Notes under the pieces: generated by a model
What the model saw: the letters and a program-made list of their open reading frames with translations, nothing else
What the model was told of the DNA's origin: nothing
The model's database searches: none
Part shown: one piece after another, positions 4,547 through 23,435 of the stretch
Layout: each line of letters starts with the position of its first letter
Numbering within the stretch: position 1 is the first letter of the stretch
Program-made: the position numbers and the translations under genes
NCBI GenBank assembly: GCA_025464425.1
Contig: JAODGV010000011.1
Location: 1-26,030 of the forward strand
Direction of reading: 5' to 3'
DNA from: Methanosarcinales archaeon
Lineage (GTDB): Archaea; Halobacteriota; Syntropharchaeia; Alkanophagales; Methanospirareceae
Length of the DNA: 26,030 bases

Positions 4547-6085
4547 TCATAGATAAGGCACCTCTTTTTCCGCTATTTTTTGCCTCACGGGGATAACGAA
4601 ATAGAAAGTCGAACCTTTCCCGGGCTCACTCTCCACCCATATCTTACCCCTGTGCGCTTGTATGATTCCTTTAGCGATAGCCAGTCCTAAACCTGTTCCA
4701 CGATGCTCCCTCACCATAGAGGTATCAATTTGAGAGAATGGCAGGAACAATTTATCTTGATCGGCTTTTGAAATCCCGACACCATGATCTGTTATACGAA
4801 ACATAACATTTTCACCCAGTTGCTTGGTTTCGACGAGCACTTCAGATGATTTTTCAGAGAATTTTATTGCATTGTTTAGTAGATTGCCTATTGCCTGCTG
4901 TAATCTTTCGGCATCACCGATGATCACAGGCAGATCAGCCAGCTTAGCGGTTATTTTTATGCCCTTCTCCTTAGCGAAGGCATCTTGCACTTTTATTGCT
5001 TCCTTAACCGTATCGTTGAGACTCATGGGCTTGAAGGACATCCTGATTCGCCCTGCTTCCAGTCTTGATATGTCCAGTATATCAGCAATCAGATTGTCCA
5101 GCCTCGCCAGATTTCTGAGAGCTATTTCTATGCTATTCTTCTGTTCTTCGGTCAGTTCGCCCATGTAACCTTCTTGAAGCATCTGTAATTGAGCTTTGAT
5201 CGGAGTAAGTGGCGTTTTCAACTCATGGGACGTTATAGAAAGGAACACGGTCTTCATTCTTGCCACCTCCTCCAGACCCACCACCTTCAACTCCAGTTCG
5301 CGGTTGAGTTTTTGAATCTCCTCCTCCGCCTTCTTCCGTTCCGTTATGTCTCTGAATATGGTTAATTTAGATATACTGCCGTCTGCGTTTCTCAGCGGTG
5401 TCTCAATGAGGTCATATGTTTTGTTCTGCCTGCGAGAGTGCCACTCCCATCTGACAGTCCGCCCTTTCATCACCTCCGAAAGTTTGCACAGCGGGCAGGG
5501 CTCTTCGCGATCATGAAACGCTGCATAGCAAATACTCCCCTCCTGATCACCAAACTCATCACGCAGGATCTTATTCATAAACTCCACTTTATAGTCCGCG
5601 GAGACGACATACACACCATCAGCCATGCTCTCAAATATCAGATTCAGGTTGTCTCGCTCTGCTTTTATCCGCCTTCTTATCTCCTCTGCCCTCCTTTTTT
5701 CCTCATGCAAAAGAGCTTTAGCGTGTTCACCGCTGACGAATCCGACGAGATAAGCCACGGCGAAGAAGACAATTGCTCTTTGCAGAGCGCTGAGAGTCAC
5801 GATACCGAAGCTAAAATCTACGGAGATGAGTGTTGTGACGAGATGAAAAGCCCCGAGGAATATTGCAACGTAAATAGCTCTCATGTGATACCATACACCC
5901 GCCATAATGAGGGGGATATAGAAGAAATGTGTGTACATGATTTCTCTACCCAATATGAAGGTAACATAAACATCCAGAATAATGCAGGCTAATATAGCAT
6001 TAAACAGGAGAAGAGCTTTTATCTTCTCAGATTCTATGCCGGCGAAGTGGTATCCGATTCCCATATGCCCTTCTATTTGAGACAC
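4547..6085 (-). CDS. Membrane-bound PAS sensor histidine kinase (about 4 TM, PAS, HisKA, HATPase_c)
   Basis: Hydrophobic N-terminus. PAS ending IFRDITERK. H-box SHELKTPLT (H287), N-box NLLNNAIKF, G1 DHGVGI, F-box LFLPFSQ, G2 GTGLGLAI. Confidence 0.95.
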   Translation of the reverse strand: MSQIEGHMGIGYHFAGIESEKIKALLLFNAILACIILDVYVTFILGREIMYTHFFYIPLIMAGVWYHMRAIYVAIFLGAFHLVTTLISVDFSFGIVTLSALQRAIVFFAVAYLVGFVSGEHAKALLHEEKRRAEEIRRRIKAERDNLNLIFESMADGVYVVSADYKVEFMNKILRDEFGDQEGSICYAAFHDREEPCPLCKLSEVMKGRTVRWEWHSRRQNKTYDLIETPLRNADGSISKLTIFRDITERKKAEEEIQKLNRELELKVVGLEEVARMKTVFLSITSHELKTPLTPIKAQLQMLQEGYMGELTEEQKNSIEIALRNLARLDNLIADILDISRLEAGRIRMSFKPMSLNDTVKEAIKVQDAFAKEKGIKITAKLADLPVIIGDAERLQQAIGNLLNNAIKFSEKSSEVLVETKQLGENVMFRITDHGVGISKADQDKLFLPFSQIDTSMVREHRGTGLGLAIAKGIIQAHRGKIWVESEPGKGSTFYFVIPVRQKIAEKEVPYL

Positions 6086-6089
6086 GGAT

Positions 6090-6479
6090 TTACACGGTTC
6101 TCTTCATCGCCTCTTCGATGGAATCGAGCAGTTCTCGCACGGTAAACGGCTTCTCAATGAAGCCCACAACCTGATTAAATGCGAGCAGCTCCTCCTCCTC
6201 CGCTTCCTGCAAATTGACCGCGGTCAGGAATATGATTTTTGTATCTGCCAATCTACTGTCCTTCTCTATCTCGCCCAGTACTTCCTTAGCAGTCAAGCCG
6301 GGCATCATTATATCAAGCAGGATGACATCGGGTATTTCTTCCTGTAATTTGTCCAGGCACTCATGCCCATCTTTGGCTTTGATTGTTTTGTAATTGTTGG
6401 CATCGAGTATCTGTGCGACTGAAAGCAGAACATCGGGTTCGTCATCCACAATCATGACGGTCTTTCTCTCGCTCATCAT
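6090..6479 (-). CDS. Stand-alone response regulator receiver (REC) protein
   Basis: IVDDE, LLDIMMPG (phospho-acceptor D56), FLTA and IEKPF motifs. No output domain. Confidence 0.95.
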   Translation of the reverse strand: MMSERKTVMIVDDEPDVLLSVAQILDANNYKTIKAKDGHECLDKLQEEIPDVILLDIMMPGLTAKEVLGEIEKDSRLADTKIIFLTAVNLQEAEEEELLAFNQVVGFIEKPFTVRELLDSIEEAMKRTV

Positions 6480-7946
6480 TCAACAATTTATCCTCTGGTT
6501 TTCCGGTGTGACGACGGCGATGAGTTGAAGCGGTCCTTTTTTACCTATTATCAGAGAAGCGGATAATCGGGCATCGAACTCCGAGCCATCCTTTCGGAGT
6601 GCAACCAGAAGCCCTTCCCATGTGCCTTTCTCGCGTACCGCGGTCAGGGCATCTCCGGCTTTAGCTTTATCTTTCCAGAAATCAAGGCAGTTGCGACCCA
6701 GGACCTCGCTTTCATCCTCATAGCCCCACAGTTCCAGGAATGCCGGATTCACATATGTCTGTTTCCCTTCCATATCAGCCATAAAAATAGGTTGAGTGGA
6801 GATTCTGATGGCATCGGCTTTGAGTTTCCACTCCTCTTCTGCTTTGATTTTGGCGATACCACCGGCAATCGTCTCAGATACACCTGCGAGTAAACTTCGG
6901 TCATCATCAGAAATAGCGTTTCCGAAGCGAGAGAGGATGATGAGCGCGCCATGAAGCTCACCTCTGGTCTTCAATGGAATCACGTAGCACTGTTGAAGAT
7001 TATATGCCCTGGCTAAGTGAGAAGCGGGCAGTGCGAGAGGGTCATTCTTATCCATGCCTTTGACCCTGTGAGTCCGGGAGAACTGTATAAATAAGGCTGC
7101 TTTGCGGTTGATTGACTCAGTAGCTATTCTTCTCTTCCATTCAGCGGCATCACTCTTCTCATCCTCAGGTGGATAACCTATCCGGGCATAACATGAGAGC
7201 GTATCGCTAATGGGTTCGTAAATCAGGATGTCACCGAAGTCGAAGGTGATGACGTCACGCAAATTTTTGAGTATCGTGGAACACAACTGGTTGATCGTAT
7301 AAGACCTGTTAACGGCTTCTCCGAGCAGACGATGGAGCTCAGAGAGATTCTTTATTCGCTTCTCATACTTCACCTTCTCCGTGATGTCGCTGATAATAGC
7401 GATGATGGATGAGGAGCCGTCGGGATTCTCCACACGCCTCGCTTTGATGTCAATAATTCTACCCGCTTTGTCCTCCTCGATGGTTTCCACTTCCTCTGCC
7501 GTTCCCGCTATGATCTCCGCTATTTTAGCGTGGTGGTCTGGAGATGCGTGCCCGAAGAATGCGTGCTGATATTTCTGCCCGATGCAATTACCATAAAGTG
7601 CGGTCAGATATCGGTTCATGAAGAGGATATTGAAATCAAAGTCGAGAATAAGAATGCCTTCGGGCATATCAGAGAGAATACGTGAGAATATCTTCTCGGT
7701 ATAGGTCTTCTCATCTTCGCGTAAGGTGAATATGTGCTGCAGGGGTGATTTACTCACGAACCACACCTTTGCACGCCCTATTTGCTTGTAAGATATGCGT
7801 CCGTCAGCACGCAGGTGATTCAGGTACTTGGAGAGTGTATGCCGCCCGAGTGGCACAGCCTTTGAGATTTCATCTATGGTTGCGCCTATACCCCCGATGT
7901 TCTGTATGGCATCAATTATTCTGGAGTATATCTCTTCTGGTTTCAT
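6480..7946 (-). CDS. Winged-HTH + PAS + GAF + PAS sensory transcriptional regulator (no kinase or REC domain)
   Basis: N-terminal wHTH (TIDEISKAVPLGRHTLSKYLNHLRADGRISYKQIGRAKVWFV). PAS1 ends ISDITEK. GAF includes YVIPLKTRGELHGALII. PAS2 includes YVNPAFLELWGY...GRNC. The stop codon abuts the REC ATG. Confidence 0.85.
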   Translation of the reverse strand: MKPEEIYSRIIDAIQNIGGIGATIDEISKAVPLGRHTLSKYLNHLRADGRISYKQIGRAKVWFVSKSPLQHIFTLREDEKTYTEKIFSRILSDMPEGILILDFDFNILFMNRYLTALYGNCIGQKYQHAFFGHASPDHHAKIAEIIAGTAEEVETIEEDKAGRIIDIKARRVENPDGSSSIIAIISDITEKVKYEKRIKNLSELHRLLGEAVNRSYTINQLCSTILKNLRDVITFDFGDILIYEPISDTLSCYARIGYPPEDEKSDAAEWKRRIATESINRKAALFIQFSRTHRVKGMDKNDPLALPASHLARAYNLQQCYVIPLKTRGELHGALIILSRFGNAISDDDRSLLAGVSETIAGGIAKIKAEEEWKLKADAIRISTQPIFMADMEGKQTYVNPAFLELWGYEDESEVLGRNCLDFWKDKAKAGDALTAVREKGTWEGLLVALRKDGSEFDARLSASLIIGKKGPLQLIAVVTPENQRINC

Positions 7947-7970
7947 CTTGAATTGAAGACTCAGGTTTAT

Positions 7971-7978
7971 CTTTAAAT
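7971..7978 (-). promoter_or_regulatory. Probable TATA box of the wHTH-PAS/REC/HK operon
   Basis: Minus strand reads GGGA-ATTTAAAG, 25-32 nt upstream of the ATG at 7946. This fits a leaderless transcript. Confidence 0.5.
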
Positions 7979-8033
7979 TCCCGAAATGGATATGGCATGC
8001 TCGTCTTACCGATGCCTGCCTGCCGTTACAGAT

Positions 8034-8963
8034 TCATTCCAATCCCGCCTTCTCCCTCAGTCTCTTATAGTCCGCTTCCACCCTCGCCTGTATCTCCTCT
8101 ATCACATCATCAGATAGATGTCTGAACCTGCCCTGGTGCTTAAAGTATTCCCTGACCGGTCTAAGCTCCGGTAGATCTATGCTCAAATGGTATTCTCCAT
8201 TGACCACCTCATAAAGCGGGAATATACCGGTCTCTACCGCCAGACGACCCAGTTCGACCGATATATCCGGGCGACACCGCCAGCCAGTAGGGCAGGGCGA
8301 GAACACATGGATATATGCGGGTCCTGCCATATCGAGCCCCCTGCGCACTTTATCCATCAAATCAAACGGATAAGATGGACATGCCGTTGCTACATACGGG
8401 ATACGGTGCGCAACCGCGATCTCAGGCATGTTCTTCTTCCACGTCATCTGCCCCAGCGGGCGCTTCTCACCCACAGGCGCAGTGGTCGTCCATGCGCCAT
8501 AGGGTGTAGCAGAAGAACGCTGTATGCCTGTATTCATATACGCCTCGTTATCGAAGCATACATAGAGGAAATCATGCCCGCGCTCCATTGCACCGGATAA
8601 TGCCTGTATTCCTATATCTGATGTCCCGCCATCACCCGCGAAACCCACGAACTTTACACCCTTCGACGGTATCTTACCCTTTCTTATACGCGCTTTATAT
8701 GCAGATTCTATACCCGACACTACCGCTGCAACATTCTCAAACAGCGTGTGAATCCATGGTACGCGCCACGAAGTTTGCGGTAACAGCGAAGAGATGATCT
8801 CTATACAGCCCGTTGCTGTAACGATGATGACATTCTTACCCAGTGCTTTACATACCAGTCGGACAGCAAGAGCCTCTCCACAGCCTATACATGCACGATG
8901 CCCTGGAGCGAAATTCTCTTCGGTGGTTACTTCTCGCGGTATAAACAAAATCTCCTCACTCAT
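8034..8963 (-). CDS. porB: Pyruvate/2-oxoacid:ferredoxin oxidoreductase beta subunit (four-subunit POR/VOR type)
   Basis: GHRACIGCG, TGC, TPP-binding GDGGTSDIG...DNEAYMNTGIQRS and SPCPTGW motifs. Exact 2-oxoacid specificity cannot be read from sequence. Confidence 0.9.
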   Translation of the reverse strand: MSEEILFIPREVTTEENFAPGHRACIGCGEALAVRLVCKALGKNVIIVTATGCIEIISSLLPQTSWRVPWIHTLFENVAAVVSGIESAYKARIRKGKIPSKGVKFVGFAGDGGTSDIGIQALSGAMERGHDFLYVCFDNEAYMNTGIQRSSATPYGAWTTTAPVGEKRPLGQMTWKKNMPEIAVAHRIPYVATACPSYPFDLMDKVRRGLDMAGPAYIHVFSPCPTGWRCRPDISVELGRLAVETGIFPLYEVVNGEYHLSIDLPELRPVREYFKHQGRFRHLSDDVIEEIQARVEADYKRLREKAGLE

Positions 8964-8968
8964 CTCTA

Positions 8969-10141
8969 TTACTCCCTTATCCCGATCAGCTCAGGCTTAT
9001 CCTCTCTCTCCTCACCCGCATTTACACGTTCCCGCGCACGTTTTATCATGTACCTGAATTCAGCAACAGAGATGTCCCTGCCGCCGAGCCCACCGATGAA
9101 GCCAATGACCGGCGGTCTCTCCACAAGATTATAAAGTGCAGACCGCACCTCTGAGCAGACAGGACCACCCATACCGAACGATATCGCCCTGTCCAGTACA
9201 ACAAGCAGTTCAATATCCTTTACCGCAGCTCTCAACTCAGCAAACGGAAAAGGACGCCAGAGCCGCAACCTTATGAGCCCCACCGCTTCTCCCGCATCCC
9301 GCATCTCATCAACCGCCAGCATGGCAGTCTCACTGAGGCTGCCCATGACCAGTAGCGCAATTCTTGCATCTTCCATCCTGTACAGTTCCACCGGTGAGTA
9401 ATAACGCCCAAATATACGCCCAAACTCTTCCCAGGTCTTCAATATCTTCTGCTTCGTCGCTTCAAAATCCACTTCCTGCGCCTTCTTCGTCTCTGGATAT
9501 ATAAAAGGTGGTGCATAACAGCCCATACTCACAGGCTTATCGGGATCCAAGACAAAAGGATGCTCATAATCGGGTATGAAATCCCGTACATCCTCTTCTG
9601 CCGGCAATTCCATATCCTCTATTACATGCGAGAGGTAGAAGCCGTCAATATGAACCATAGCGGGGAATAAAACCTCTTCTGCCATGCGATAAGCGCAAAC
9701 AGTGAGATCAAACGCCTGCTGGTTGTTCTCCGCAAACATCTGTATCCAGCCAATATCACGTAATGACATCGCATCCGAATGGTCACACCATACAGAAAGA
9801 GGAGCCGACAGCGCTCTGTTCGCCGCAACCGCAACAACAGGCAATCGCATCGAAGAGGGGATATAGAGCACCTCATGCATCAATTCCAGACCCTGACCCG
9901 CTGAGCATGTAAATACACGTGCACCCGCAGCAGAAGCACCCACACACGCACTCATCGCCGAATGCTCACTCTCCACACATATGAATTCCGCATCCAGCTC
10001 GCCGTTCGCAACCATCTCAGCCAGTCGCTCAACGATATGTGTCTGTGGCGTAATAGGATACGCGGCTATAACATCCGCATTCACCATCCTGACTGCTTCA
10101 GCAACAGCGAAAGAACCTTCCAGTCCCACTATCCTGCCCAT
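8969..10141 (-). CDS. porA: Pyruvate/2-oxoacid:ferredoxin oxidoreductase alpha subunit
   Basis: AAYPITPQT, VESEHSAMSA, ANRALSAP, HIDGFYLSH, LRLWRPFP and GGLGGRD motifs. ATG at 10141 preferred over the track's TTG at 10150. Confidence 0.9.
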   Translation of the reverse strand: MGRIVGLEGSFAVAEAVRMVNADVIAAYPITPQTHIVERLAEMVANGELDAEFICVESEHSAMSACVGASAAGARVFTCSAGQGLELMHEVLYIPSSMRLPVVAVAANRALSAPLSVWCDHSDAMSLRDIGWIQMFAENNQQAFDLTVCAYRMAEEVLFPAMVHIDGFYLSHVIEDMELPAEEDVRDFIPDYEHPFVLDPDKPVSMGCYAPPFIYPETKKAQEVDFEATKQKILKTWEEFGRIFGRYYSPVELYRMEDARIALLVMGSLSETAMLAVDEMRDAGEAVGLIRLRLWRPFPFAELRAAVKDIELLVVLDRAISFGMGGPVCSEVRSALYNLVERPPVIGFIGGLGGRDISVAEFRYMIKRARERVNAGEEREDKPELIGIRE

Positions 10142-10296
10142 CGTTATCAAATTAAAGATCGTGTCTTATAAAAAATAAGTTTCGATGATTTTGTATTAAT
10201 GTGATGAGTGGTGGGTGGCGCGCCGCTATGGAGCACGATATAGCACCATGACCAACCTTATTTATCAGTATGATATAATGTAACGAGATAAGAGGA

Positions 10297-11369: not shown

Positions 11370-12146
11370 TCAACCTTTGAATACCGGCTTTCGCTTATCT
11401 ATAAACGCCTGCAAACCTTCTTTCGCATCGTGAGTTGAGATAGCGGAGCCGAAACATTCCGATTCATAGCGCAATGCCCGTTCCAGATCCATCTCCAGCC
11501 CGTTATTCACCACGAGCTTTAATGTCCTCAGAGCAAGTCTGCTCTTCGTCCGTAACTTGTTGAGCACGGTATCAACAGCGGCATCAAGTTCTGCTACTGG
11601 TACCACCTGATTCACGAGTCGCAACATGAGTGCCTCTTTTGCATCTATCGGCTCGCCGGTCATGAGCATCTCAATCGCTTTCGTCCTGCCTACCAGCCGT
11701 GCGAGCCGCTGTGTACCGCCACCACCGGGAATGATGCCCAGATTGACCTCCGGCAGTCCGAATATCGAGCTATCAGAGGCTATTCGGAAGTCACATGCCA
11801 TTGCGAGCTCGAGACCACCACCGAGACAGAACCCATTTATTCGCGCTATCACCGGCTTGCTGAGCTGCTCCAGGTAACTTATGACACTATGTACCCAGAG
11901 TGACCAGTCACGTGCCCCGACAGGGCTCATATCCTTTAGCTCATGCACATCGGCACCTGCACAGAACGCACGGTCGCCCGCACCGGTTATTACTATCGCT
12001 CGTACCGACTCATCAGCTTCGATATCCGCCAGCAGGGCTCTTAATTGCCGCAATAGGGGTGTATTCAATGCATTGAGCGCATCCTCGCGGTTCAATGTTA
12101 TGGTCGCCACATCATCCCGCCTCTTATATAATACTTCTTTACCCAT
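11370..12146 (-). CDS. Enoyl-CoA hydratase/isomerase (crotonase) family protein
   Basis: ITLNREDALNALN, AFCAGADV, GGGLELAMACD and FGLPEVNLGIIPGGGGTQRL motifs; both catalytic Glu present. Start reassigned to ATG 12146 (258 aa), 5 nt after the DUF106 stop. Confidence 0.92.
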   Translation of the reverse strand: MGKEVLYKRRDDVATITLNREDALNALNTPLLRQLRALLADIEADESVRAIVITGAGDRAFCAGADVHELKDMSPVGARDWSLWVHSVISYLEQLSKPVIARINGFCLGGGLELAMACDFRIASDSSIFGLPEVNLGIIPGGGGTQRLARLVGRTKAIEMLMTGEPIDAKEALMLRLVNQVVPVAELDAAVDTVLNKLRTKSRLALRTLKLVVNNGLEMDLERALRYESECFGSAISTHDAKEGLQAFIDKRKPVFKG

Positions 12147-12852: not shown

Positions 12853-14541
12853 ATGAGTAGACCACTGATCGTGCAGAGCGACAAGACGATTCTGCTGGAG
12901 GTGGATAATCCCGAGTTTGAGGATGCCCGTGATGCTATAATACGGTTTGCTGAGCTCATTAAGAGTCCTGAGCATGTTCATACGTACAGAATAACCAATC
13001 TATCACTGTGGAACGCGGCAGCTACCGGCATGACCGCATCGGAGATTGTTGCAGCTCTGGAATCGTTCAGCCGATATGAAGTACCTGAGAATGTCATACG
13101 GGACATAGAGGATTACATATCGAGATACGGGCGATTGAAGCTGGAGAAGCATGCCGGAGCGGTTGTACTCAGGAGTGAGGATGAGATACTGCTGAAGGAG
13201 GTGACGAGGAACAAAGCGGTTCAGCGTTACCTCACGGGTGAGCAGATAGATGCTCGAACGGTGGTTGTGGAGCCGGGAGCGCGTGGTTACATAAAGAAGG
13301 CGCTTACTGATATCGGGTTTCCAGCGGAGGATCTCGTGGGGTATGTAGAAGGAGAATTCTTCCCGCTTCAGCTGCGTGAGACCACGAGAGCAGGACTGCC
13401 GTTCTCGCTGCGTAAGTACCAGAAGGAAGCGGTAGACGCGTTCTATGCAGGCGGCAGTGCAGCGGGTGGCAGTGGTGTTGTGGTACTGCCATGTGGAGCG
13501 GGCAAGACGATGGTGGGTATGGGGGTAATGGCGAAACTGGAGACCAATACGCTCATAATCACCACCAGCACGGTCGCTTCACGTCAGTGGCGGGATGAGC
13601 TGCTGGACAAGACTGACCTGGTGAGTGATGACATAGGCGAGTACAGTGGAGAGAAGAAGGAGATCAAGCCTATAACCATTGCCACGTATCAGATTCTAAC
13701 ATACAGACCGAGACGTAAAGGGCAGACTGATAACGCATATTACCCGCATTTCGCATTGTTTAACGAGCGGAACTGGGGTCTGATAATATATGATGAGGTG
13801 CATCTGCTGCCCGCGCCGGTATTCAGGATAACTGCGGAACTGCAGGCGAAGCGGCGATTGGGGCTGACCGCAACGCTTGTGCGAGAAGATGGCAGGGAGA
13901 AGGATGTATTCTCGCTCATCGGACCCAAGCGATACGATGCACCATGGAAGGAGTTAGAACAGCAGGGCTGGATCGCCGAAGCGATCTGTAACGAGATAAG
14001 GTTGGGTATGGACGATGAGCGCAGGCTGATGTACGCACTCGCATCAGACAGGAGTAAGTATCGAATTGCAGCGGAGAATCCACGTAAGCTGGAAGTGGCG
14101 AAGCAGATAGTGGAGTACCATCGTGCACGGGGTGATAAGATACTGGTGATAGGTATGTATATAGAGCAGTTAGAGCAGATAGCGAGGATGCTCAATGCAC
14201 CGCTTCTCACCGGTAAGACGCCGAATCGTGAGCGAGAGAAGCTTTATGACGATTTCAGAAACGGTAAGCTGGATACGATAGTGGTCTCCAAGGTAGCGAA
14301 CTTCGCAGTTAACCTCCCGGATGCAAATGTCGCGATACAGATCTCAGGTACATTTGGTTCACGTCAGGAGGAGGCGCAGCGGCTCGGTCGGATACTGAGA
14401 CCCAAAGCTGACGGGTCTCCCGCATTCTTCTACTCGCTTGTGAGTAAGGATACGAAGGATCAGGACTTCAGTGCCAGGCGGCAGTTGTTCCTGACCGAAC
14501 AGGGCTATCGGTATGTGATAACTGATACATTTGAGGTATAA
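12853..14541 (+). CDS. xpb: XPB/Rad25-family SF2 DNA helicase, bacterial-type with N-terminal Helicase_C_3-like domain
   Basis: PLIVQSDKTILLEVD...ELIKSPEHVHTYRIT N-terminus, Walker A LPCGAGKT, DEVH, GLTATLVRED (XPB RED motif), SKVAN and QRLGRILR. Confidence 0.92.
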   Translation: MSRPLIVQSDKTILLEVDNPEFEDARDAIIRFAELIKSPEHVHTYRITNLSLWNAAATGMTASEIVAALESFSRYEVPENVIRDIEDYISRYGRLKLEKHAGAVVLRSEDEILLKEVTRNKAVQRYLTGEQIDARTVVVEPGARGYIKKALTDIGFPAEDLVGYVEGEFFPLQLRETTRAGLPFSLRKYQKEAVDAFYAGGSAAGGSGVVVLPCGAGKTMVGMGVMAKLETNTLIITTSTVASRQWRDELLDKTDLVSDDIGEYSGEKKEIKPITIATYQILTYRPRRKGQTDNAYYPHFALFNERNWGLIIYDEVHLLPAPVFRITAELQAKRRLGLTATLVREDGREKDVFSLIGPKRYDAPWKELEQQGWIAEAICNEIRLGMDDERRLMYALASDRSKYRIAAENPRKLEVAKQIVEYHRARGDKILVIGMYIEQLEQIARMLNAPLLTGKTPNREREKLYDDFRNGKLDTIVVSKVANFAVNLPDANVAIQISGTFGSRQEEAQRLGRILRPKADGSPAFFYSLVSKDTKDQDFSARRQLFLTEQGYRYVITDTFEV

Positions 14542-17195
14542 TGGAGATAGAGCGAAAAGCCCCGTACAGGTATTACCCGCAGCCCGGCGAGGGGTTTGGT
14601 ATAGCCCGTGAAGTGCCGCGATGTGTATCAGCCTGTCCTGCGTGCTGCGATGTTCACGGGTATCTGCGGCTTGTGCGTGAGGGTAAGCACAGTGATGCGT
14701 ATTCGTTGATAATGGATACGATACCGTTTCCCGCAACCATCGGCAGGATATGTCATCATCCGTGCGAATTGAGCTGTCGGCGTGGTTATTTCGATGCGCC
14801 GGTATCTATTGCCGCGGTGAAGCGATTCGCGGGTGATTACGTGCATGCCCCCGGAACCATACAGAAAACCGACCGGAAACGTGTGGCAGTAATCGGTGCC
14901 GGACCCGCCGGACTCACCGCTGCTTTCCGGCTGGCATGTAAGGGCTATGAGGTGAAGGTCTATGAGAAACTGCCGATAGAAGGTGGCATGCTATTTGCCG
15001 GTATACCCCCGTACAGATTGCCAAAGGACGTATTGAAGGCTGAGATAGAGGCAATCAAGCAGTCCGGTATAGAGATAGAAACGGGTAAGGAGATAGATAA
15101 AGAGGAGTTTGAGCGGTTAAGGCGTGATTATGATGCCATATTCATCGCCACGGGTATGCATGAGAGCAGGCGACTGGGCGTGGAGGGAGAGCACCTGAGG
15201 GGAGTCATACATGGCATTGAGTTCCTCCGTGAGTTAAATCTGAATGGCAGTGTGCCTCATACCGGTAAGCGAGTGGCGGTGATAGGCGGTGGTAATGTGG
15301 CTATGGACGTTGCAAGAAGTCTGATTCGTATGGGTGCGGACGTGACCGTAGTCTATCGTAGGACACGAGCGGAGATGCCAGCCAGCGAGGAGGAGGTTCG
15401 AGAAGCGGAAGACGAGGGTGTGAAGTTCGTATTCCTGGCTACACCTGCGAGGATCATCGGCACAGAGAGAGTGGAGAAGCTGGAACTGGTCAGGATGAAA
15501 CTGGGTGCGCCCGATGAATCCGGCAGGAGGCACCCGATACCGATAAAAGGACTGCGATTCACCATGGATGTTGATATGGTGATACCGGCAATAGGGCAGA
15601 CCTCAAACCTCGAGTTCCTCGAGGGTAGCGGTGTTGATATAGAAAGAGACAGGATAAAAGTGGATGAGTCACGTGCAACAACAGCAGAGGGCATATTCGC
15701 AGGTGGCGATTGCGTTCATGGTGCTGCATTCGCCGTTGATGCAATTGCTGATGGTAATATCGCTGCGGAGTCAATAGACCGTTTTCTAAGTGGTGTAAAT
15801 GAACTGCAACGTCGTGTGAAGCACAAGCAGGAGGAACTCCCGGGTGAAGTGGAATACATACATGAGGAGTTGAGTCTCGAGCATGAGCTGGAATTGATAA
15901 CCCATGCAGGCAGGTGCGAGATACCGGAGATTGATATAGAGGAGCGTAAGAGCAGTTTCAAAGAGGTGAAGCAGTGCTTATCAGAGACTGAAGCTATTAA
16001 GGAAGCTGATAGATGTCTGAGCTGTCGTGGCTGTCTCCTCACCGTTAAGGATTTGAAAGCAGAGGTGAAAGACGCGGATGAGTACATAGCGAGACTGGTG
16101 CATCACACAGGTGTGAATAAATGTGCGGAATGCGGCGAGTGCACTGCTTCATGCCCGGTTGCCGCAATAGACATCGGGTTCTCGCCACGTAAACTCGCAG
16201 GCATCGCTATGATGGAGGATGTATCCAGACTGGCGTTAAGTGAAGGTATATGGTCATGTATCACCTGTGGCATATGTAATGCTGTATGCCCCTATGGTGT
16301 GGATTTCCTGGGGTTCATACAGGGTTTGAGGGTTCTGGCGGTCAGTCGTGGCAATGTACCGCACTACGCCATGCAGAAGCAGATGGAGGAGATGATAAGC
16401 AACACCGACAGGCTGAGCTGGCTTGAGGGTGCGCACGACCTGGAAGTTGCTTCGAGTGGCGAAGTCTATTATTTCTGTGGCTGCCTGTCATATCTCGACC
16501 GTGTATATAGCGACCGGAGGAATTTGAGATTGCTTGATATCGCACGCAGTGCGGTGAGACTGCTCAACCATGCCGGTATAGTGCCTGCGGTGAGCCGTGA
16601 AGAGAGGTGCTGCGGGCATGACCTGCTCTGGCTCGGTGATGAATCGGGCTTCAAAACGCTGATGAATGCAAATATAGAGGTGATAAGAGCGAGCGGGGCG
16701 AAGACCGTGGTATTCTCCTGTGCGGAATGCCTCAGGACTTTTGAAGTGGACTATCGCAGATTTTACGGTGACGACCTGGAGTTTGAACTCGTACACATCT
16801 CTGAGTTTTTGCGTGATAAGGCACTGAATCTGAAGGAATCGGAGCTCGTTATTACGTATCACGACCCGTGCCGGTTGCGACATCTCAGGCTGTATGAGCC
16901 ACCAAGGGCGATGCTCGCCCGTATACCGGGTCTGAAGCAGGTGGAGATGAGGCATAACAGTGAGCATGGGCTGTGTTGCGGTGTGAGCAGTTTGTTGAGC
17001 TGCAGCCCTGTGGCGAGAGCGATGCAGCGTGCAAGGCTGATAGAAGCAGAAGAGACAGGCGCATCAAAGCTCGTTGTTACATGCCCGAAATGCTGGATAC
17101 ATCTCGATTGCGCGATTGAGAATGATGTTGAAATGAAGGGTTACAGGCTGGAAATAGCGGATCTGACAGCTCTGATCGCGGCTCATATAAAGTAA
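14541..17195 (+). CDS. Fusion oxidoreductase: GltD/NfnB-like FAD/NAD(P)H module + HdrC-like 2x[4Fe-4S] + two CCG domains (HdrD/HdrB-like)
   Basis: Fer4_20-type Cys at C28/C32/C71/C75/C79. FAD motif GAGPAG; nucleotide motif GGGNVAMD followed by VYRR. RCLSC at 492-495. Two CxxCxxCxxxCP motifs (528-538, 573-583). CCG motifs C648-x41-CC-x35-CxxC and C777-x34-CC-x34-CxxC. SD GAGGT and a TAATG overlap with xpb. Confidence 0.9.
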   Translation: MEIERKAPYRYYPQPGEGFGIAREVPRCVSACPACCDVHGYLRLVREGKHSDAYSLIMDTIPFPATIGRICHHPCELSCRRGYFDAPVSIAAVKRFAGDYVHAPGTIQKTDRKRVAVIGAGPAGLTAAFRLACKGYEVKVYEKLPIEGGMLFAGIPPYRLPKDVLKAEIEAIKQSGIEIETGKEIDKEEFERLRRDYDAIFIATGMHESRRLGVEGEHLRGVIHGIEFLRELNLNGSVPHTGKRVAVIGGGNVAMDVARSLIRMGADVTVVYRRTRAEMPASEEEVREAEDEGVKFVFLATPARIIGTERVEKLELVRMKLGAPDESGRRHPIPIKGLRFTMDVDMVIPAIGQTSNLEFLEGSGVDIERDRIKVDESRATTAEGIFAGGDCVHGAAFAVDAIADGNIAAESIDRFLSGVNELQRRVKHKQEELPGEVEYIHEELSLEHELELITHAGRCEIPEIDIEERKSSFKEVKQCLSETEAIKEADRCLSCRGCLLTVKDLKAEVKDADEYIARLVHHTGVNKCAECGECTASCPVAAIDIGFSPRKLAGIAMMEDVSRLALSEGIWSCITCGICNAVCPYGVDFLGFIQGLRVLAVSRGNVPHYAMQKQMEEMISNTDRLSWLEGAHDLEVASSGEVYYFCGCLSYLDRVYSDRRNLRLLDIARSAVRLLNHAGIVPAVSREERCCGHDLLWLGDESGFKTLMNANIEVIRASGAKTVVFSCAECLRTFEVDYRRFYGDDLEFELVHISEFLRDKALNLKESELVITYHDPCRLRHLRLYEPPRAMLARIPGLKQVEMRHNSEHGLCCGVSSLLSCSPVARAMQRARLIEAEETGASKLVVTCPKCWIHLDCAIENDVEMKGYRLEIADLTALIAAHIK

Positions 17196-20260: not shown

Positions 20261-20335
20261 AGCGGGGTAGGGTAGTTAGGAGATCCCGTCGGGCTCATAA
20301 CCCGGAGATCGATGGTTCGAATCCATCCCCCGCTA
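20261..20335 (+). tRNA. Initiator tRNA-Met (anticodon CAT); no intron, CCA not encoded
   Basis: Acceptor stem AGCGGGG/CCCCGCT with the A1-U72 pair. Anticodon arm TCGGG-CTCATAA-CCCGG with three consecutive G-C pairs; CAT at 20296-20298. T-arm GATGG-TTCGAAT-CCATC. Discriminator A. Confidence 0.98.
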
Positions 20336-23164: not shown

Positions 23165-23435
23165 GGAGGAGTGAGGAGAGTAAGCCCCCTTCTGTTTCCG
23201 CAGCATTTATCTATGCGCCCCTTACGGGCTTGCACCCACGAGGCTGGTCGTTCCATCCGCCACCCACACGACCTCATCCTCACGGAATCATCGCATTGGT
23301 GTGGTGCGGTATCGTTTCTATACCAGAGCCAGGACTCTCGCCCTATGCCATCTCGGCATTCGTGTTTTTAATGGTGGGGGGACTTTCCTCAGCCTTCTCT
23401 CGAAGACCGGCAGCTGCCCTTCCTCTCTCCTCCAC
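23165..23435 (-). ncRNA. rnpB: Archaeal RNase P RNA (compact, ~270 nt)
   Basis: Minus strand contains GAGGAAAGUCCCCC and ACAGAAGGGGGCUUA, which form the P4 pseudoknot with bulged U. Long P1 (GGAGGAG-A-GAGGA-AG with CU-C-UCCUC-A-CUCCUCC), P2 GCAGC/GCUGC, P3 GUCUUC-GAGA-GAAGGC, P5 CACC/GGUG, P7 CACGA/UCGUG. Conserved AUAGAAACG, AUGGAACG, GGUGCAAG and GCAUAG segments. Tandem GA (K-turn-like) motif in P12. Confidence 0.95.

What the first reader, a model, noticed from the sequence alone, without database searches (positions are those of the whole stretch)
14541..17195. Single-chain NADPH-flavin + HdrD fusion: candidate stand-alone NADPH-linked heterodisulfide (or persulfide) oxidoreductase
Seen: one 884-aa polypeptide carries an FAD site (GAGPAG), an NAD(P)H site (GGGNVAMD..VYRR), Fer4_20-type cluster ligands, an HdrC-like 2x[4Fe-4S] domain, and two CCG domains that each keep all five Cys. 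No hdrA/B/C/E, mvhD, hydrogenase or membrane-anchor gene is adjacent. Established: five-Cys CCG motifs bind the non-cubane [4Fe-4S] sites that reduce CoM-S-S-CoB in HdrB/HdrD; the YRR motif in GltD/NfnB favours NADP(H); NADP(H) (about -320 mV) lies below the heterodisulfide couple (about -143 mV). Inference: this is a soluble wire, NADPH to FAD to FeS to CCG, that couples NADPH directly to a disulfide pool without the bifurcating HdrA flavin or the HdrE membrane anchor. It could act as a redox valve in methane/alkane metabolism. I cannot tell from here whether this architecture has been characterised.
Basis: partly seen in the sequence, partly recalled or inferred. Interest (0 to 1): 0.8.

Follow-up and report, generated by a model that had tools for sequence, protein, structure and literature searches.

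The report
NADPH-flavin/HdrD fusion, likely MetFV partner
A methane-oxidising archaeon (ANME-1) encodes one 884-residue protein joining an NADPH-binding flavin module to a heterodisulfide-reductase-type iron-sulfur module; in related genomes it sits directly behind metV-metF, so it may be the long-sought electron partner of the enzyme that replaced Mer in these organisms.

Summary

The flavin half is not NfnB-like. It is the circularly permuted, Lys-ligated GltD module of Stn/Bfu-type NfnA, whose FAD is non-bifurcating. The CCG half falls in a soluble HdrD clade, not with GlpC, GlcF or LutA.

The host is an ANME-1 archaeon with mcrB, mtrA, hdrABC and metVF. Mer and DsrC were not found. The colinear fusion is rare and was seen only in ANME-1 and its Syntropharchaeia relatives.

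The gene is solitary in this window, but its relatives give context:
- In three ANME-1 lineages the orthologue lies directly downstream of metV-metF.
- In sister lineages it sits in hdrD-hdrA-hdrA-mvhD clusters.
- A deltaproteobacterium has gltD-hdrD-hdrA-hdrA-mvhD-metV-metF.
- ANME-1 genomes without the fusion carry instead an hdrD-hdrA-hdrA-mvhD-gltD operon, and the two never co-occur.

Best reading (about 0.45): it is the NADP(H)-binding electron subunit of the MetFV methylene-H4MPT reductase. All functional claims are inference.

The scan had noted the same fusion before in another ANME-1 genome (e1-2899545).

The parts
14541..17195 (+). Whole gene, 884 aa GltD::HdrD fusion (P0001)
   Evidence: ORF and translation. 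Pfam architecture. 30 full-length homologues.
14533..14537 (+). GAGGT Shine-Dalgarno-like motif. The start ATG overlaps the XPB stop (TAATG).
   Evidence: Read directly from the sequence.
14616..14846 (+). GltD-type Fe-S region (residues 26-102): C28, C32, C36, C71, C75, C79 and K94. K94 is the Lys ligand of the FAD-proximal cluster in Stn/Bfu homologues.
   Evidence: Pfam Fer4_20, profile positions 30-109. Alignment to 8oh5_C, 9n5u_A and 5jca_L. Column table.
14880..15755 (+). FAD and NAD(P)H dinucleotide-binding domains (residues 114-405): GAGPAG 119-124, R159, GGGNVAMD 249-256, Y272-R273-R274.
   Evidence: Pfam Pyr_redox_2, 148 bits. Motif check. Residue-level alignments to solved NADPH enzymes.
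15912..16034 (+). Relocated 'N-terminal' helix plus RC492xxC495xxC498. This is the circular permutation that supplies the remaining GltD-cluster ligands.
   Evidence: NfnB residues 8-45 align to residues 458-495. The Cys are invariant.
16113..16304 (+). HdrC-like 2x[4Fe-4S] domain (residues 525-588), with two CX2CX2CX3CP motifs.
   Evidence: Pfam Fer4_8/Fer4_17. Hits to HdrC chains 5odc_C and 9sfi_E. Motifs checked.
16467..16742 (+). CCG domain 1 (C648, C690, C691, C727, C730).
   Evidence: PF02754 match at these coordinates. Cys positions. Conservation.
16851..17108 (+). CCG domain 2 (C777, C812, C813, C848, C851).
   Evidence: PF02754 match. Cys positions. Conservation.

Best explanation
The protein is a soluble electron-transfer flavo-iron-sulfur enzyme subunit.

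Shown by sequence: an NADP(H)/FAD module of the Stn/Bfu-NfnA type is fused, through about 25 residues, to a complete HdrD. That HdrD has an HdrC-like dicluster and two five-Cys CCG sites.

Inferred wire: NADP(H) <-> FAD <-> two [4Fe-4S] (the proximal one with K94, possibly C36) <-> two [4Fe-4S] <-> two non-cubane CCG clusters.

Inferred role: it is the pyridine-nucleotide-binding third subunit of the MetFV-type methylene-H4MPT reductase that replaces Mer in ANME-1. Together they would catalyse CH3-H4MPT + NADP+ <-> CH2=H4MPT + NADPH. This reaction is nearly isopotential, so no bifurcating HdrA flavin is needed.

In this reading the HdrD half acts as the Fe-S/CCG connector to MetV. HdrCB is thought to play that part in the Moorella MetFV-HdrABC-MvhD complex. 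It is not primarily a CoM-S-S-CoB reductase.

In this genome the gene has moved away from metVF (contig C91) but is presumed to work with it in trans.
For: - All cofactor ligands are present and conserved.
- The N-half is closest to solved NfnA of T. sibiricus (434 bits), C. saccharolyticus NfnABC and S. ovata StnC. It shares their permutation and Lys ligand, and NfnB has Glu at that site. Those FADs are described as non-bifurcating NADPH entry sites (PMC10482914, PMC12018979).
- YRR and R159 are kept in the whole ANME-1 clade.
- metV (PF12225), metF (PF02219) and the fusion lie colinear, 64-172 nt apart, in G019, G014 and G016 and in P0018, Ca. Methanospirare and Ca. Methanoxibalbensis contigs. 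These fall on both sides of the deepest split of the ANME-1 clade.
- A Syntrophoarchaeales-like genome has metV-metF-HdrL(GltD+HdrA)-mvhD. A deltaproteobacterium has gltD-hdrD-hdrA-hdrA-mvhD-metV-metF.
- MetFV alone does not use NAD(P)H and takes accessory subunits such as RnfC2 or HdrABC-MvhD (PMC8515935).
- The genus has MetF in 5/5 genomes searched, Mer in 0/5 and DsrC in 0/5. ANME-1 lack Fno, and the MetF electron route is an acknowledged open question (PMC9012536, section 38).
- The fusion and the hdrD-hdrA-hdrA-mvhD-gltD847 operon are mutually exclusive among the 25 family genomes: 17 carry the fusion, 6 the operon and 2 neither.
Against: - In this window, and in at least four other lineages (G003, G012, G017, L090), the gene is not next to metVF.
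- Gene adjacency is not proof of a complex.
- The full conservation of both CCG sites, and the closeness of the C-half to (MvhD-)HdrD of Methanomassiliicoccales/Thermoplasmata, fit a real disulfide reductase equally well.
- In the sister clade (f2 and other Syntropharchaeia) the fusion sits in hdr clusters without metVF.
- Bacterial GltD-HdrD-HdrA modules are also linked to POR rather than MetFV, so the module is generic.
- The substrate of ANME-1 MetF (H4MPT or H4F) is itself unproven.
- The AF2 model was poor (pLDDT 73, pTM 0.50) and gave no inter-cluster geometry.
Confidence: 0.45

Rival explanations
1. This is the first reader's reading: a stand-alone, non-bifurcating NADPH:CoM-S-S-CoB (heterodisulfide) oxidoreductase. 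The wire runs NADPH -> FAD -> four cubane clusters -> two non-cubane CCG clusters, which cleave the disulfide. It would act as a redox valve or thiol-pool maintenance enzyme.
For: - The ligand set is complete and the two halves are joined covalently.
- The flavin module is of the non-bifurcating type.
- The gene is solitary here and in several ANME-1 genera, with no Fe-S neighbours.
- The C-half lies in the HdrD clade next to Methanomassiliicoccales/Thermoplasmata HdrD. HdrD activity was measured in M. luminyensis according to the review PMC7374477.
- The best NCBIfam hit is the CoM/CoB-thiol enzyme TfrB.
- The host uses CoM/CoB: mcrB, mtrA and hdrABC are present, and comA is found in the genus.
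Against: - NADPH-driven heterodisulfide reduction (about 180 mV downhill) opposes reverse methanogenesis, which must regenerate the heterodisulfide. This is inference from standard potentials.
- The host already has HdrABC.
- Orthologues are embedded in metVF or hdrA/mvhD operons.
- Homologous GltD + HdrD pairs occur in bacteria not known to make CoM/CoB.
- The C-half is not in the biochemically defined HdrDE-type HdrD branch.
Confidence: 0.25
2. It is a module of an HdrA-based bifurcating or confurcating complex encoded in trans. The fusion would supply the NAD(P)H site and a disulfide site, while HdrA/MvhD supply the bifurcating flavin. An example reaction is Fd(red) + CoM-SH + CoB-SH + 2 NADP+ -> Fd(ox) + heterodisulfide + 2 NADPH.
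For: - In f2 (G025, G026) and in a Syntropharchaeia contig the fusion lies in the order hdrD-fusion-hdrA-hdrA-(mvhD-hdrA-mvhD-frhB-fdhA-like).
- ANME-1 genomes without the fusion carry hdrD-hdrA-hdrA-mvhD-gltD847 instead, never both.
- Bacterial operons pair GltD::MvhD, HdrD and HdrA::MvhD.
- The own genome holds several HdrA and MvhD genes.
- ANME-1 need a route to oxidise thiols and ferredoxin (PMC9012536).
Against: - The fusion has no MvhD domain.
- In the ANME-1 clade it is never next to hdrA or mvhD in the contexts examined.
- The operon-embedded subclade has lost YRR and R159, so it may not be functionally equivalent.
- A direct fusion of donor module to HdrD would short-circuit a bifurcating flavin. 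This last point is inference.
Confidence: 0.15
3. It is an NAD(P)H-linked reductase or dehydrogenase for another substrate at the CCG site. Candidates are another disulfide, a persulfide or a protein-bound thiol, or a GlpC/GlcF/LutA-like role feeding a flavoenzyme other than MetF.
For: - CCG domains with all five Cys also occur in GlpC, GlcF, LutA and SdhE, so the Cys pattern does not fix the substrate (PMC2754724 for SdhE).
- All NCBIfam hits to the C-half are far below their cut-offs.
- Relatives occur in Hadarchaeota, Marinimicrobia, WOR-3 and Acidobacteria.
Against: - DsrC was not found in 5 genomes of the genus.
- The C-half is separated from GlpC, GlcF and LutA on the tree.
- No dehydrogenase partner such as GlcD, GlpAB or LutBC is adjacent in any context examined.
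Confidence: 0.1

Closest known systems
NfnA of Bfu-type NfnABC / StnC (T. sibiricus 9n5u, C. saccharolyticus 9bov, S. ovata 8oh5)
   Same: - It is the best sequence and fold match to residues 26-502 (to 587 for two of the entries).
- It has the same circular permutation of the GltD module.
- It has the same Lys at the FAD-proximal cluster (K94 = K165/K170).
- It has the same YRR NADPH motif.
- The FAD feeds a linear Fe-S chain.
   Different: - The fusion has no NuoG/HydA-like or FdhF-like domains.
- No NuoEF-like BfuBC genes are adjacent.
- The chain ends in an HdrD module instead.
- An extra Cys (C36) is conserved almost only in the fusion family.
NfnB / NfnL of bifurcating NfnAB (NfnSL), and GltD
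   Same: The fold and the FAD/NADPH motifs are the same, at 38-41% identity.
   Different: - NfnB has Glu where this protein has Lys.
- NfnB is not permuted.
- No NfnA/S partner is adjacent.
- GltD's partner GltB is not adjacent either.
- All NCBIfam GltD/Nfn models score below their cut-offs.
HdrD (HdrDE of Methanosarcinales; soluble HdrD and MvhD-HdrD of Methanomassiliicoccales/Thermoplasmata)
   Same: - It has an HdrC-like dicluster plus two five-Cys CCG domains in one chain.
- The C-half is 43-50% identical to soluble (MvhD-)HdrD proteins and is sister to them on the tree.
   Different: - It is fused to an NADPH flavin module.
- There is no HdrE.
- It is not in the HdrDE-type branch, which was represented by one HdrD next to a 5-TM HdrE-like gene in G038.
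MetFV accessory modules: RnfC2 (A. woodii) and HdrABC-MvhD (Moorella thermoacetica)
   Same: - The gene lies next to metV-metF in three ANME-1 lineages.
- It carries the pyridine-nucleotide site that MetFV lacks.
- It contains an Hdr-type CCG module, as the Moorella complex does (PMC8515935; PMC9012536).
   Different: - It is one polypeptide with a GltD-type module in place of RnfC or HdrA.
- It has NADPH-type motifs rather than NADH-type.
- It has no MvhD.
- The C1 carrier is presumed to be H4MPT.
- No biochemical evidence exists.
HdrA::NfnB insertions (HdrA9-11 / type III HdrA) and HdrL
   Same: - These occur in the same organisms and use the same GltD-type module (46-51% identity). One example is on contig C54 of this genome.
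- They were discussed as possible NADPH links in ANME-1 (PMC9012536, PMC12054007).
   Different: - Those proteins carry the HdrA bifurcating flavin and no CCG domains.
- This protein carries HdrD and no HdrA part.

Membership tests
GltD/NfnB-type NAD(P)H-FAD-2x[4Fe-4S] module (Fer4_20 + Pyr_redox_2) | FAD and NAD(P)H dinucleotide folds, with the YRR 2'-phosphate motif | tested here: met
   GAGPAG at 119, GGGNVAMD at 249, Y272-R273-R274. These align with solved NADPH-binding homologues.
GltD/NfnB-type NAD(P)H-FAD-2x[4Fe-4S] module (Fer4_20 + Pyr_redox_2) | Ligands for two [4Fe-4S] clusters | tested here: met
   C28, C32, C71, C75, C79, K94 and C492, C495, C498 are invariant. The last three are supplied by a permuted segment.
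NCBIfam PRK12771 'NAD(P)-binding protein' (NF009410) | Score at or above the curated cut-off of 516 bits | tested here: not met
   The score is 479.1 bits over residues 23-546.
Bifurcating NfnB (NfnSL large subunit) | Glu ligand at the FAD-proximal cluster and the canonical (unpermuted) order | tested here: not met
   K94 stands where NfnB has Glu (LERF versus VKRF). NfnB residues 8-45 align to residues 458-495 here.
Bfu/Stn-type NfnA (BfuA) | Permuted GltD insert with a Lys-ligated cluster | tested here: met
   K165/K170 are described in PMC12018979 and PMC10482914.
Bfu/Stn-type NfnA (BfuA) | NuoG/HydA-like flanking domains and adjacent NuoEF-like BfuBC genes | tested here: not met
   No such domains occur in P0001 and none are encoded in the window. 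A NuoF-like gene exists elsewhere in the genome, on contig C114.
HdrD (heterodisulfide reductase catalytic subunit) | HdrC-like 2x[4Fe-4S] domain plus two CCG motifs with five Cys each | tested here: met
HdrD (heterodisulfide reductase catalytic subunit) | Groups with the HdrDE-type HdrD and has an HdrE partner | tested here: not met
   The tree places it with soluble (MvhD-)HdrD proteins. The HdrDE-type HdrD of G038 lies outside. No HdrE-like gene is in the window.
HdrD (heterodisulfide reductase catalytic subunit) | Reduces CoM-S-S-CoB | not testable with these tools
   This needs an enzyme assay.
GlpC / GlcF / LutA-type CCG subunits | Clusters with these proteins, passes the model cut-offs, and has an adjacent dehydrogenase partner | tested here: not met
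   E. coli GlpC, GlcF and YkgE fall outside on long branches. GlpC scores 91 against a cut-off of 278, and GlcF 45 against 333. No partner genes are present.
TfrB (thiol:fumarate reductase subunit B) | NCBIfam NF004898 cut-off of 385 bits; adjacent TfrA | tested here: not met
   The score is 151.5 bits. No TfrA-like gene is in the window.
MetFV accessory electron-input subunit | Encoded next to metV-metF | tested here: inconclusive
   This is not met in the window itself: metVF is on contig C91. It is met for orthologues in G014, G016, G019, L108, L109 and L110.
MetFV accessory electron-input subunit | Forms a complex with MetFV and confers NAD(P)H dependence | not testable with these tools
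   This needs co-purification and assays.

The most novel reading that the evidence does not exclude
ANME-1 replaced Mer with a three-subunit enzyme, MetF-MetV-GltD::HdrD, that links methyl-H4MPT oxidation to NADP+. In it the Hdr-type CCG non-cubane clusters serve as an electron adaptor to MetFV rather than as a disulfide reductase. The same would then hold for the unexplained Hdr modules of MetFV complexes in acetogens and deltaproteobacteria. Lineages without the fusion would use the five-gene hdrD-hdrA-hdrA-mvhD-gltD set for the same job.
Probability: 0.35. Interest if true: 0.8.

Novelty: new variant of a known kind. Interest (0 to 1): 0.66.

Why it matters
How ANME-1 methanotrophs handle the methyl-to-methylene step without Mer, and how they re-route the electrons without Fno, is stated as an open question in the main comparative study of these uncultured organisms (PMC9012536). 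That study found no Hdr-related gene next to MetF in ANME-1.

A conserved metV-metF-gltD::hdrD arrangement gives a concrete three-gene candidate that can be expressed and assayed. It also offers a minimal system for asking what Hdr-type CCG modules do in MetFV complexes. That question is still unanswered for the Moorella enzyme.

If the protein instead proves to be a plain NADPH:heterodisulfide reductase, it would be a new, simple class of heterodisulfide reductase.

Tried and rejected
- AlphaFold2 on the 30-sequence family alignment gave pLDDT 73 and pTM 0.50, with the N-terminal Fe-S region below 50. No coordinates are available, so the cluster-to-cluster distance test could not be done. Foldseek against the PDB returned only N-half matches.
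- No public sequencing run was listed for the gene, so there is no expression evidence. The supplements of the ANME transcriptome paper are not held.
- Persulfide/DsrC reading: DsrC was not found in five genomes of the genus.
- NfnB-style bifurcation at this FAD: disfavoured by Lys in place of Glu and by the Stn/Bfu-type permutation.
- Assembly chimera: rejected. The same architecture appears in 17 of the 25 family genomes (this one included) and in many metagenome contigs.
- XPB helicase as a functional partner: the synteny is kept only in the two closest relatives.
- Literature searches for an NfnB/GltD-HdrD fusion found no description.
- The absence of McrA in this MAG reflects incompleteness. 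mcrB lies at a contig edge on C70, and mcrA is present in two congeners.

Full report
**1. The observation**

The window holds an uninterrupted ORF at 14541-17195 (+) of 884 aa. The opposite strand is full of stops. The ATG overlaps the stop of the upstream XPB/RAD25 helicase gene by one base, and GAGGT lies 4-8 nt upstream.

Pfam finds Fer4_20 (26-102), Pyr_redox_2 (114-405), an HdrC-type dicluster domain (525-588) and two CCG domains.
- GAGPAG at 119, GGGNVAMD at 249, VYRR at 271.
- Two CX2CX2CX3CP motifs at 528 and 573.
- Five Cys in each CCG domain: 648/690/691/727/730 and 777/812/813/848/851.

These residues are invariant or nearly invariant in 30 full-length homologues of 47-82% identity. 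The window's other genes are housekeeping: XPB, LeuRS, porAB, a two-component system, TIM, FtsZ, RNase P RNA and a tRNA. None is hdrA/B/C/E, mvhD or a hydrogenase.

**2. The organism**

The named homologues are from ANME-1 (Methanophagaceae, Ca. Methanospirare, Ca. Methanoxibalbensis) and Syntropharchaeia. The MAG is 0.98 Mb and 73% complete.

- mcrA was not found in it, but mcrB lies at a contig edge (C70) and mtrA is present. mcrA occurs in two congeners.
- comA is in 5 of 7 genomes of the genus.
- MetF is in 5/5 genomes searched, Mer in 0/5 and DsrC in 0/5.
- The genome also encodes hdrC-hdrB-hdrA, an HdrA::NfnB insertion protein (1173 aa) and a solitary 352-aa HdrD-like protein.

The 'no CoM/CoB pathway' refutation therefore does not apply, and a DsrC-linked role is unlikely.

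**3. The flavin half**

The best solved relatives are NfnA of T. sibiricus NfnABC (9n5u), C. saccharolyticus NfnABC (9bov) and S. ovata StnC (8oh5). The classical NfnB and GltD come next.

Residue-level alignments show three things:
- (a) The N-terminal helix and RCxxC motif of NfnB (residues 8-45) align to residues 458-495 here, so the module is circularly permuted, as in the Stn/Bfu proteins.
- (b) K94, invariant in the family, aligns with Lys165 (Tsi) and Lys170 (Sov). That Lys ligates the FAD-proximal cluster. NfnB has Glu there.
- (c) R159 and YRR are conserved.

The published structures describe this FAD as a non-bifurcating NADPH entry site feeding a linear cluster chain (PMC10482914, PMC12018979). 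A Cys at position 36 is conserved almost only in the fusion family; its role is unknown.

**4. The CCG half**

The best NCBIfam hit is the CoM/CoB-thiol enzyme TfrB at 151 bits, far below its cut-off. LdhH, GlpC, GlcF and DsrK score lower. The nearest stand-alone proteins, at 43-50% identity, are HdrD and MvhD-HdrD proteins of Thermoplasmata/Methanomassiliicoccales.

A 55-row tree gives this picture:
- All fusion C-halves, together with a few Hadarchaeota stand-alone HdrD-likes, form one clade with support 100.
- That clade is sister to the (MvhD-)HdrD proteins.
- An HdrDE-type HdrD (next to a 5-TM HdrE-like gene), an ETF-linked HdrD-like protein, HdrCB, and E. coli GlpC, GlcF and YkgE all lie outside.

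The refutation criterion 'groups with GlpC/GlcF/LutA' is therefore not met. The protein is also not in the biochemically defined HdrDE branch.

**5. Distribution and origin**

Among 1.84 billion cluster representatives, only two colinear full-length representatives exist. In 41 related genomes the fusion is full length in 17 of the 25 family-f1 genomes and in both f2 genomes. It was not seen in f3-f9.

The N-halves are monophyletic (support 98), with two subclades:
- ANME-1 (f1), which keeps YRR and R159.
- f2 and other Syntropharchaeia, where YRR has become C-V/L-E and R159 has become I/E.

One ancient fusion event is the simplest reading. A different, permuted family (P0031, P0061, P0121, and an Asgard locus) has the GltD module inserted inside the first CCG domain.

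**6. Context outside the window**

This is where the reading changes.

(a) ANME-1 contexts. The gene is solitary in this window and in G003, G012, G017 and a Methanophagaceae contig. In G019, G014 and G016, and in contigs carrying P0018, P0024 (Ca. Methanospirare) and P0025 (Ca. Methanoxibalbensis), it lies directly downstream of metV (PF12225) and metF (PF02219). It is on the same strand, 64-172 nt away. These lineages span the deepest split of the ANME-1 clade, while the other flanking genes differ.

(b) Sister lineages. In f2 and a Syntropharchaeia contig the order is hdrD-fusion-hdrA-hdrA-(mvhD-hdrA-mvhD-frhB-fdhA-like).

(c) ANME-1 genomes without the fusion. These carry hdrD-hdrA-hdrA-mvhD-gltD847. 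Orthologues of gltD847 (75% identity or more) occur in exactly six f1 genomes, none of which has the fusion. None of the 17 fusion genomes has gltD847.

(d) Other MetVF links. A Syntrophoarchaeales-like genome has metV-metF-HdrL(GltD+HdrA)-mvhD. A deltaproteobacterial contig has gltD::mvhD-hdrD-hdrA-hdrA-mvhD-metV-metF.

(e) Other bacterial and archaeal contexts. Other bacteria link GltD::MvhD-HdrD-HdrA (with an in-frame TGA, probably Sec) to POR genes. Hadarchaeota link the module to NuoEF-like genes.

**7. Interpretation**

MetFV-type reductases do not bind NAD(P)H themselves. They recruit RnfC2 in A. woodii or HdrABC-MvhD in Moorella (PMC8515935). ANME-1 lack Mer and Fno, and the fate of MetF electrons is called an important open question. 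No ANME-1 MetF had been found next to an Hdr-related gene (PMC9012536, section 38).

The repeated linkage of GltD-bearing Hdr-type proteins to metVF supports a specific role. So does the mutual exclusion of the fusion and the five-gene set. The role I favour is that the fusion is the NADP(H)-binding partner of MetFV.

The methylene/methyl-H4MPT and NADP couples are nearly isopotential (established values, own knowledge). A version without HdrA, and so without bifurcation, is therefore thermodynamically sensible. The CCG half would then be the connector to MetV. I put this at about 0.45.

The rivals are:
The chemistry is plausible and the gene is solitary in many genomes, but the reaction runs against the catabolic direction of a methanotroph.
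- A module of an HdrA complex encoded in trans, at about 0.15.
- Another substrate at the CCG site, at about 0.1.

None of these was tested biochemically. The AF2 model was too poor to measure geometry and no expression data could be obtained.

**8. Novelty**

No paper found in the library describes this fusion or the metVF linkage. Related HdrA::NfnB insertions and HdrL are known (PMC9012536, PMC12054007, PMC2702500).

The scan's own notes had flagged the same architecture in another ANME-1 genome (e1-2899545) and the permutation in this one (e1-5314581). I class it as a new variant of known kinds, with a testable link to an open question in ANME-1 bioenergetics.

Noticed in passing
G008:C80 (L093 2654-10067), G015:C49 (L094 1921-9341): ANME-1 genomes lacking the fusion carry an operon in the order hdrD(375)-hdrA(430)-hdrA(569)-mvhD(252)-gltD-like(847 aa, no CCG). 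Orthologues of the 847-aa protein and the fusion never co-occur among the 25 family genomes.
   Followed up: partly
L022 1-7555 (Deltaproteobacteria bacterium CSMAG_954): The cluster runs gltD::fer4::flpD (cut by the contig start)-hdrD-hdrA-hdrA-mvhD-metV-metF. It is a Moorella-like MTHFR cluster with HdrD in place of HdrBC, plus a GltD module.
   Followed up: partly
L003 4951-13922 (Neomarinimicrobiota); similar in L007, L009, L028: The operon runs porDABG-gltD::fer4::mvhD(773 aa)-hdrD(383)-hdrA::mvhD. The hdrA reading frame is broken by an in-frame TGA at 12033-12035, probably selenocysteine. This fits the NCBIfam name 'diclust_near_Sec' for the GltD-like protein.
   Followed up: partly
P0031, P0032, P0061, P0121; L025 3884-6646 (Promethearchaeota): A second, differently built fusion family of about 906-920 aa. 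Here the GltD module is inserted inside the first CCG domain of an HdrD, after its first Cys.
   Followed up: no
L095, L096, P0027-P0030 (f2 / Syntropharchaeia fusions): This subclade has replaced the NADPH motif YRR with C-V/L-E and R159 with I/E. That suggests a change or loss of pyridine-nucleotide specificity in the operon-embedded form.
   Followed up: no
L091 1680-8004 (Syntropharchaeia contig JBTNFK010000200.1): The order is acyl-CoA dehydrogenase, HdrD-like (one CCG triplet), etfB, etfA, acyl-CoA dehydrogenase, HdrD-like. This sits immediately upstream of the fusion and a large hdrA/mvhD/frhB/fdhA-like cluster.
   Followed up: no
L108 1125-2111, L109 1-994: A GCHY-1 (PF02649, GTP cyclohydrolase family) gene lies divergently next to metV-metF-fusion in two ANME-1 lineages. 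It may be tied to pterin cofactor synthesis.
   Followed up: no
window 23169-23429 (-) and 20261-20335 (+): Archaeal RNase P RNA (Rfam RF00373, 209 bits, full length) and a tRNA gene.
   Followed up: partly
window 4547-10150 (-): porA/porB-like genes (8034-10150) are followed by a PAS protein (6480-7946), a small ORF and a PAS histidine kinase (4547-6085), all on one strand.
   Followed up: no
window 14646-14648 (residue C36): A Cys at position 36, next to the CP motif of the GltD Fe-S region, is conserved in nearly all fusion proteins. It is V/I/T/L in other GltD modules. It could be an extra or alternative cluster ligand.
   Followed up: no
G000:C114:630-1145: A NuoF-like (Complex1_51K) protein of about 560-645 aa is present in four of five genomes of the genus searched. 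It is unlinked to the fusion.
   Followed up: no
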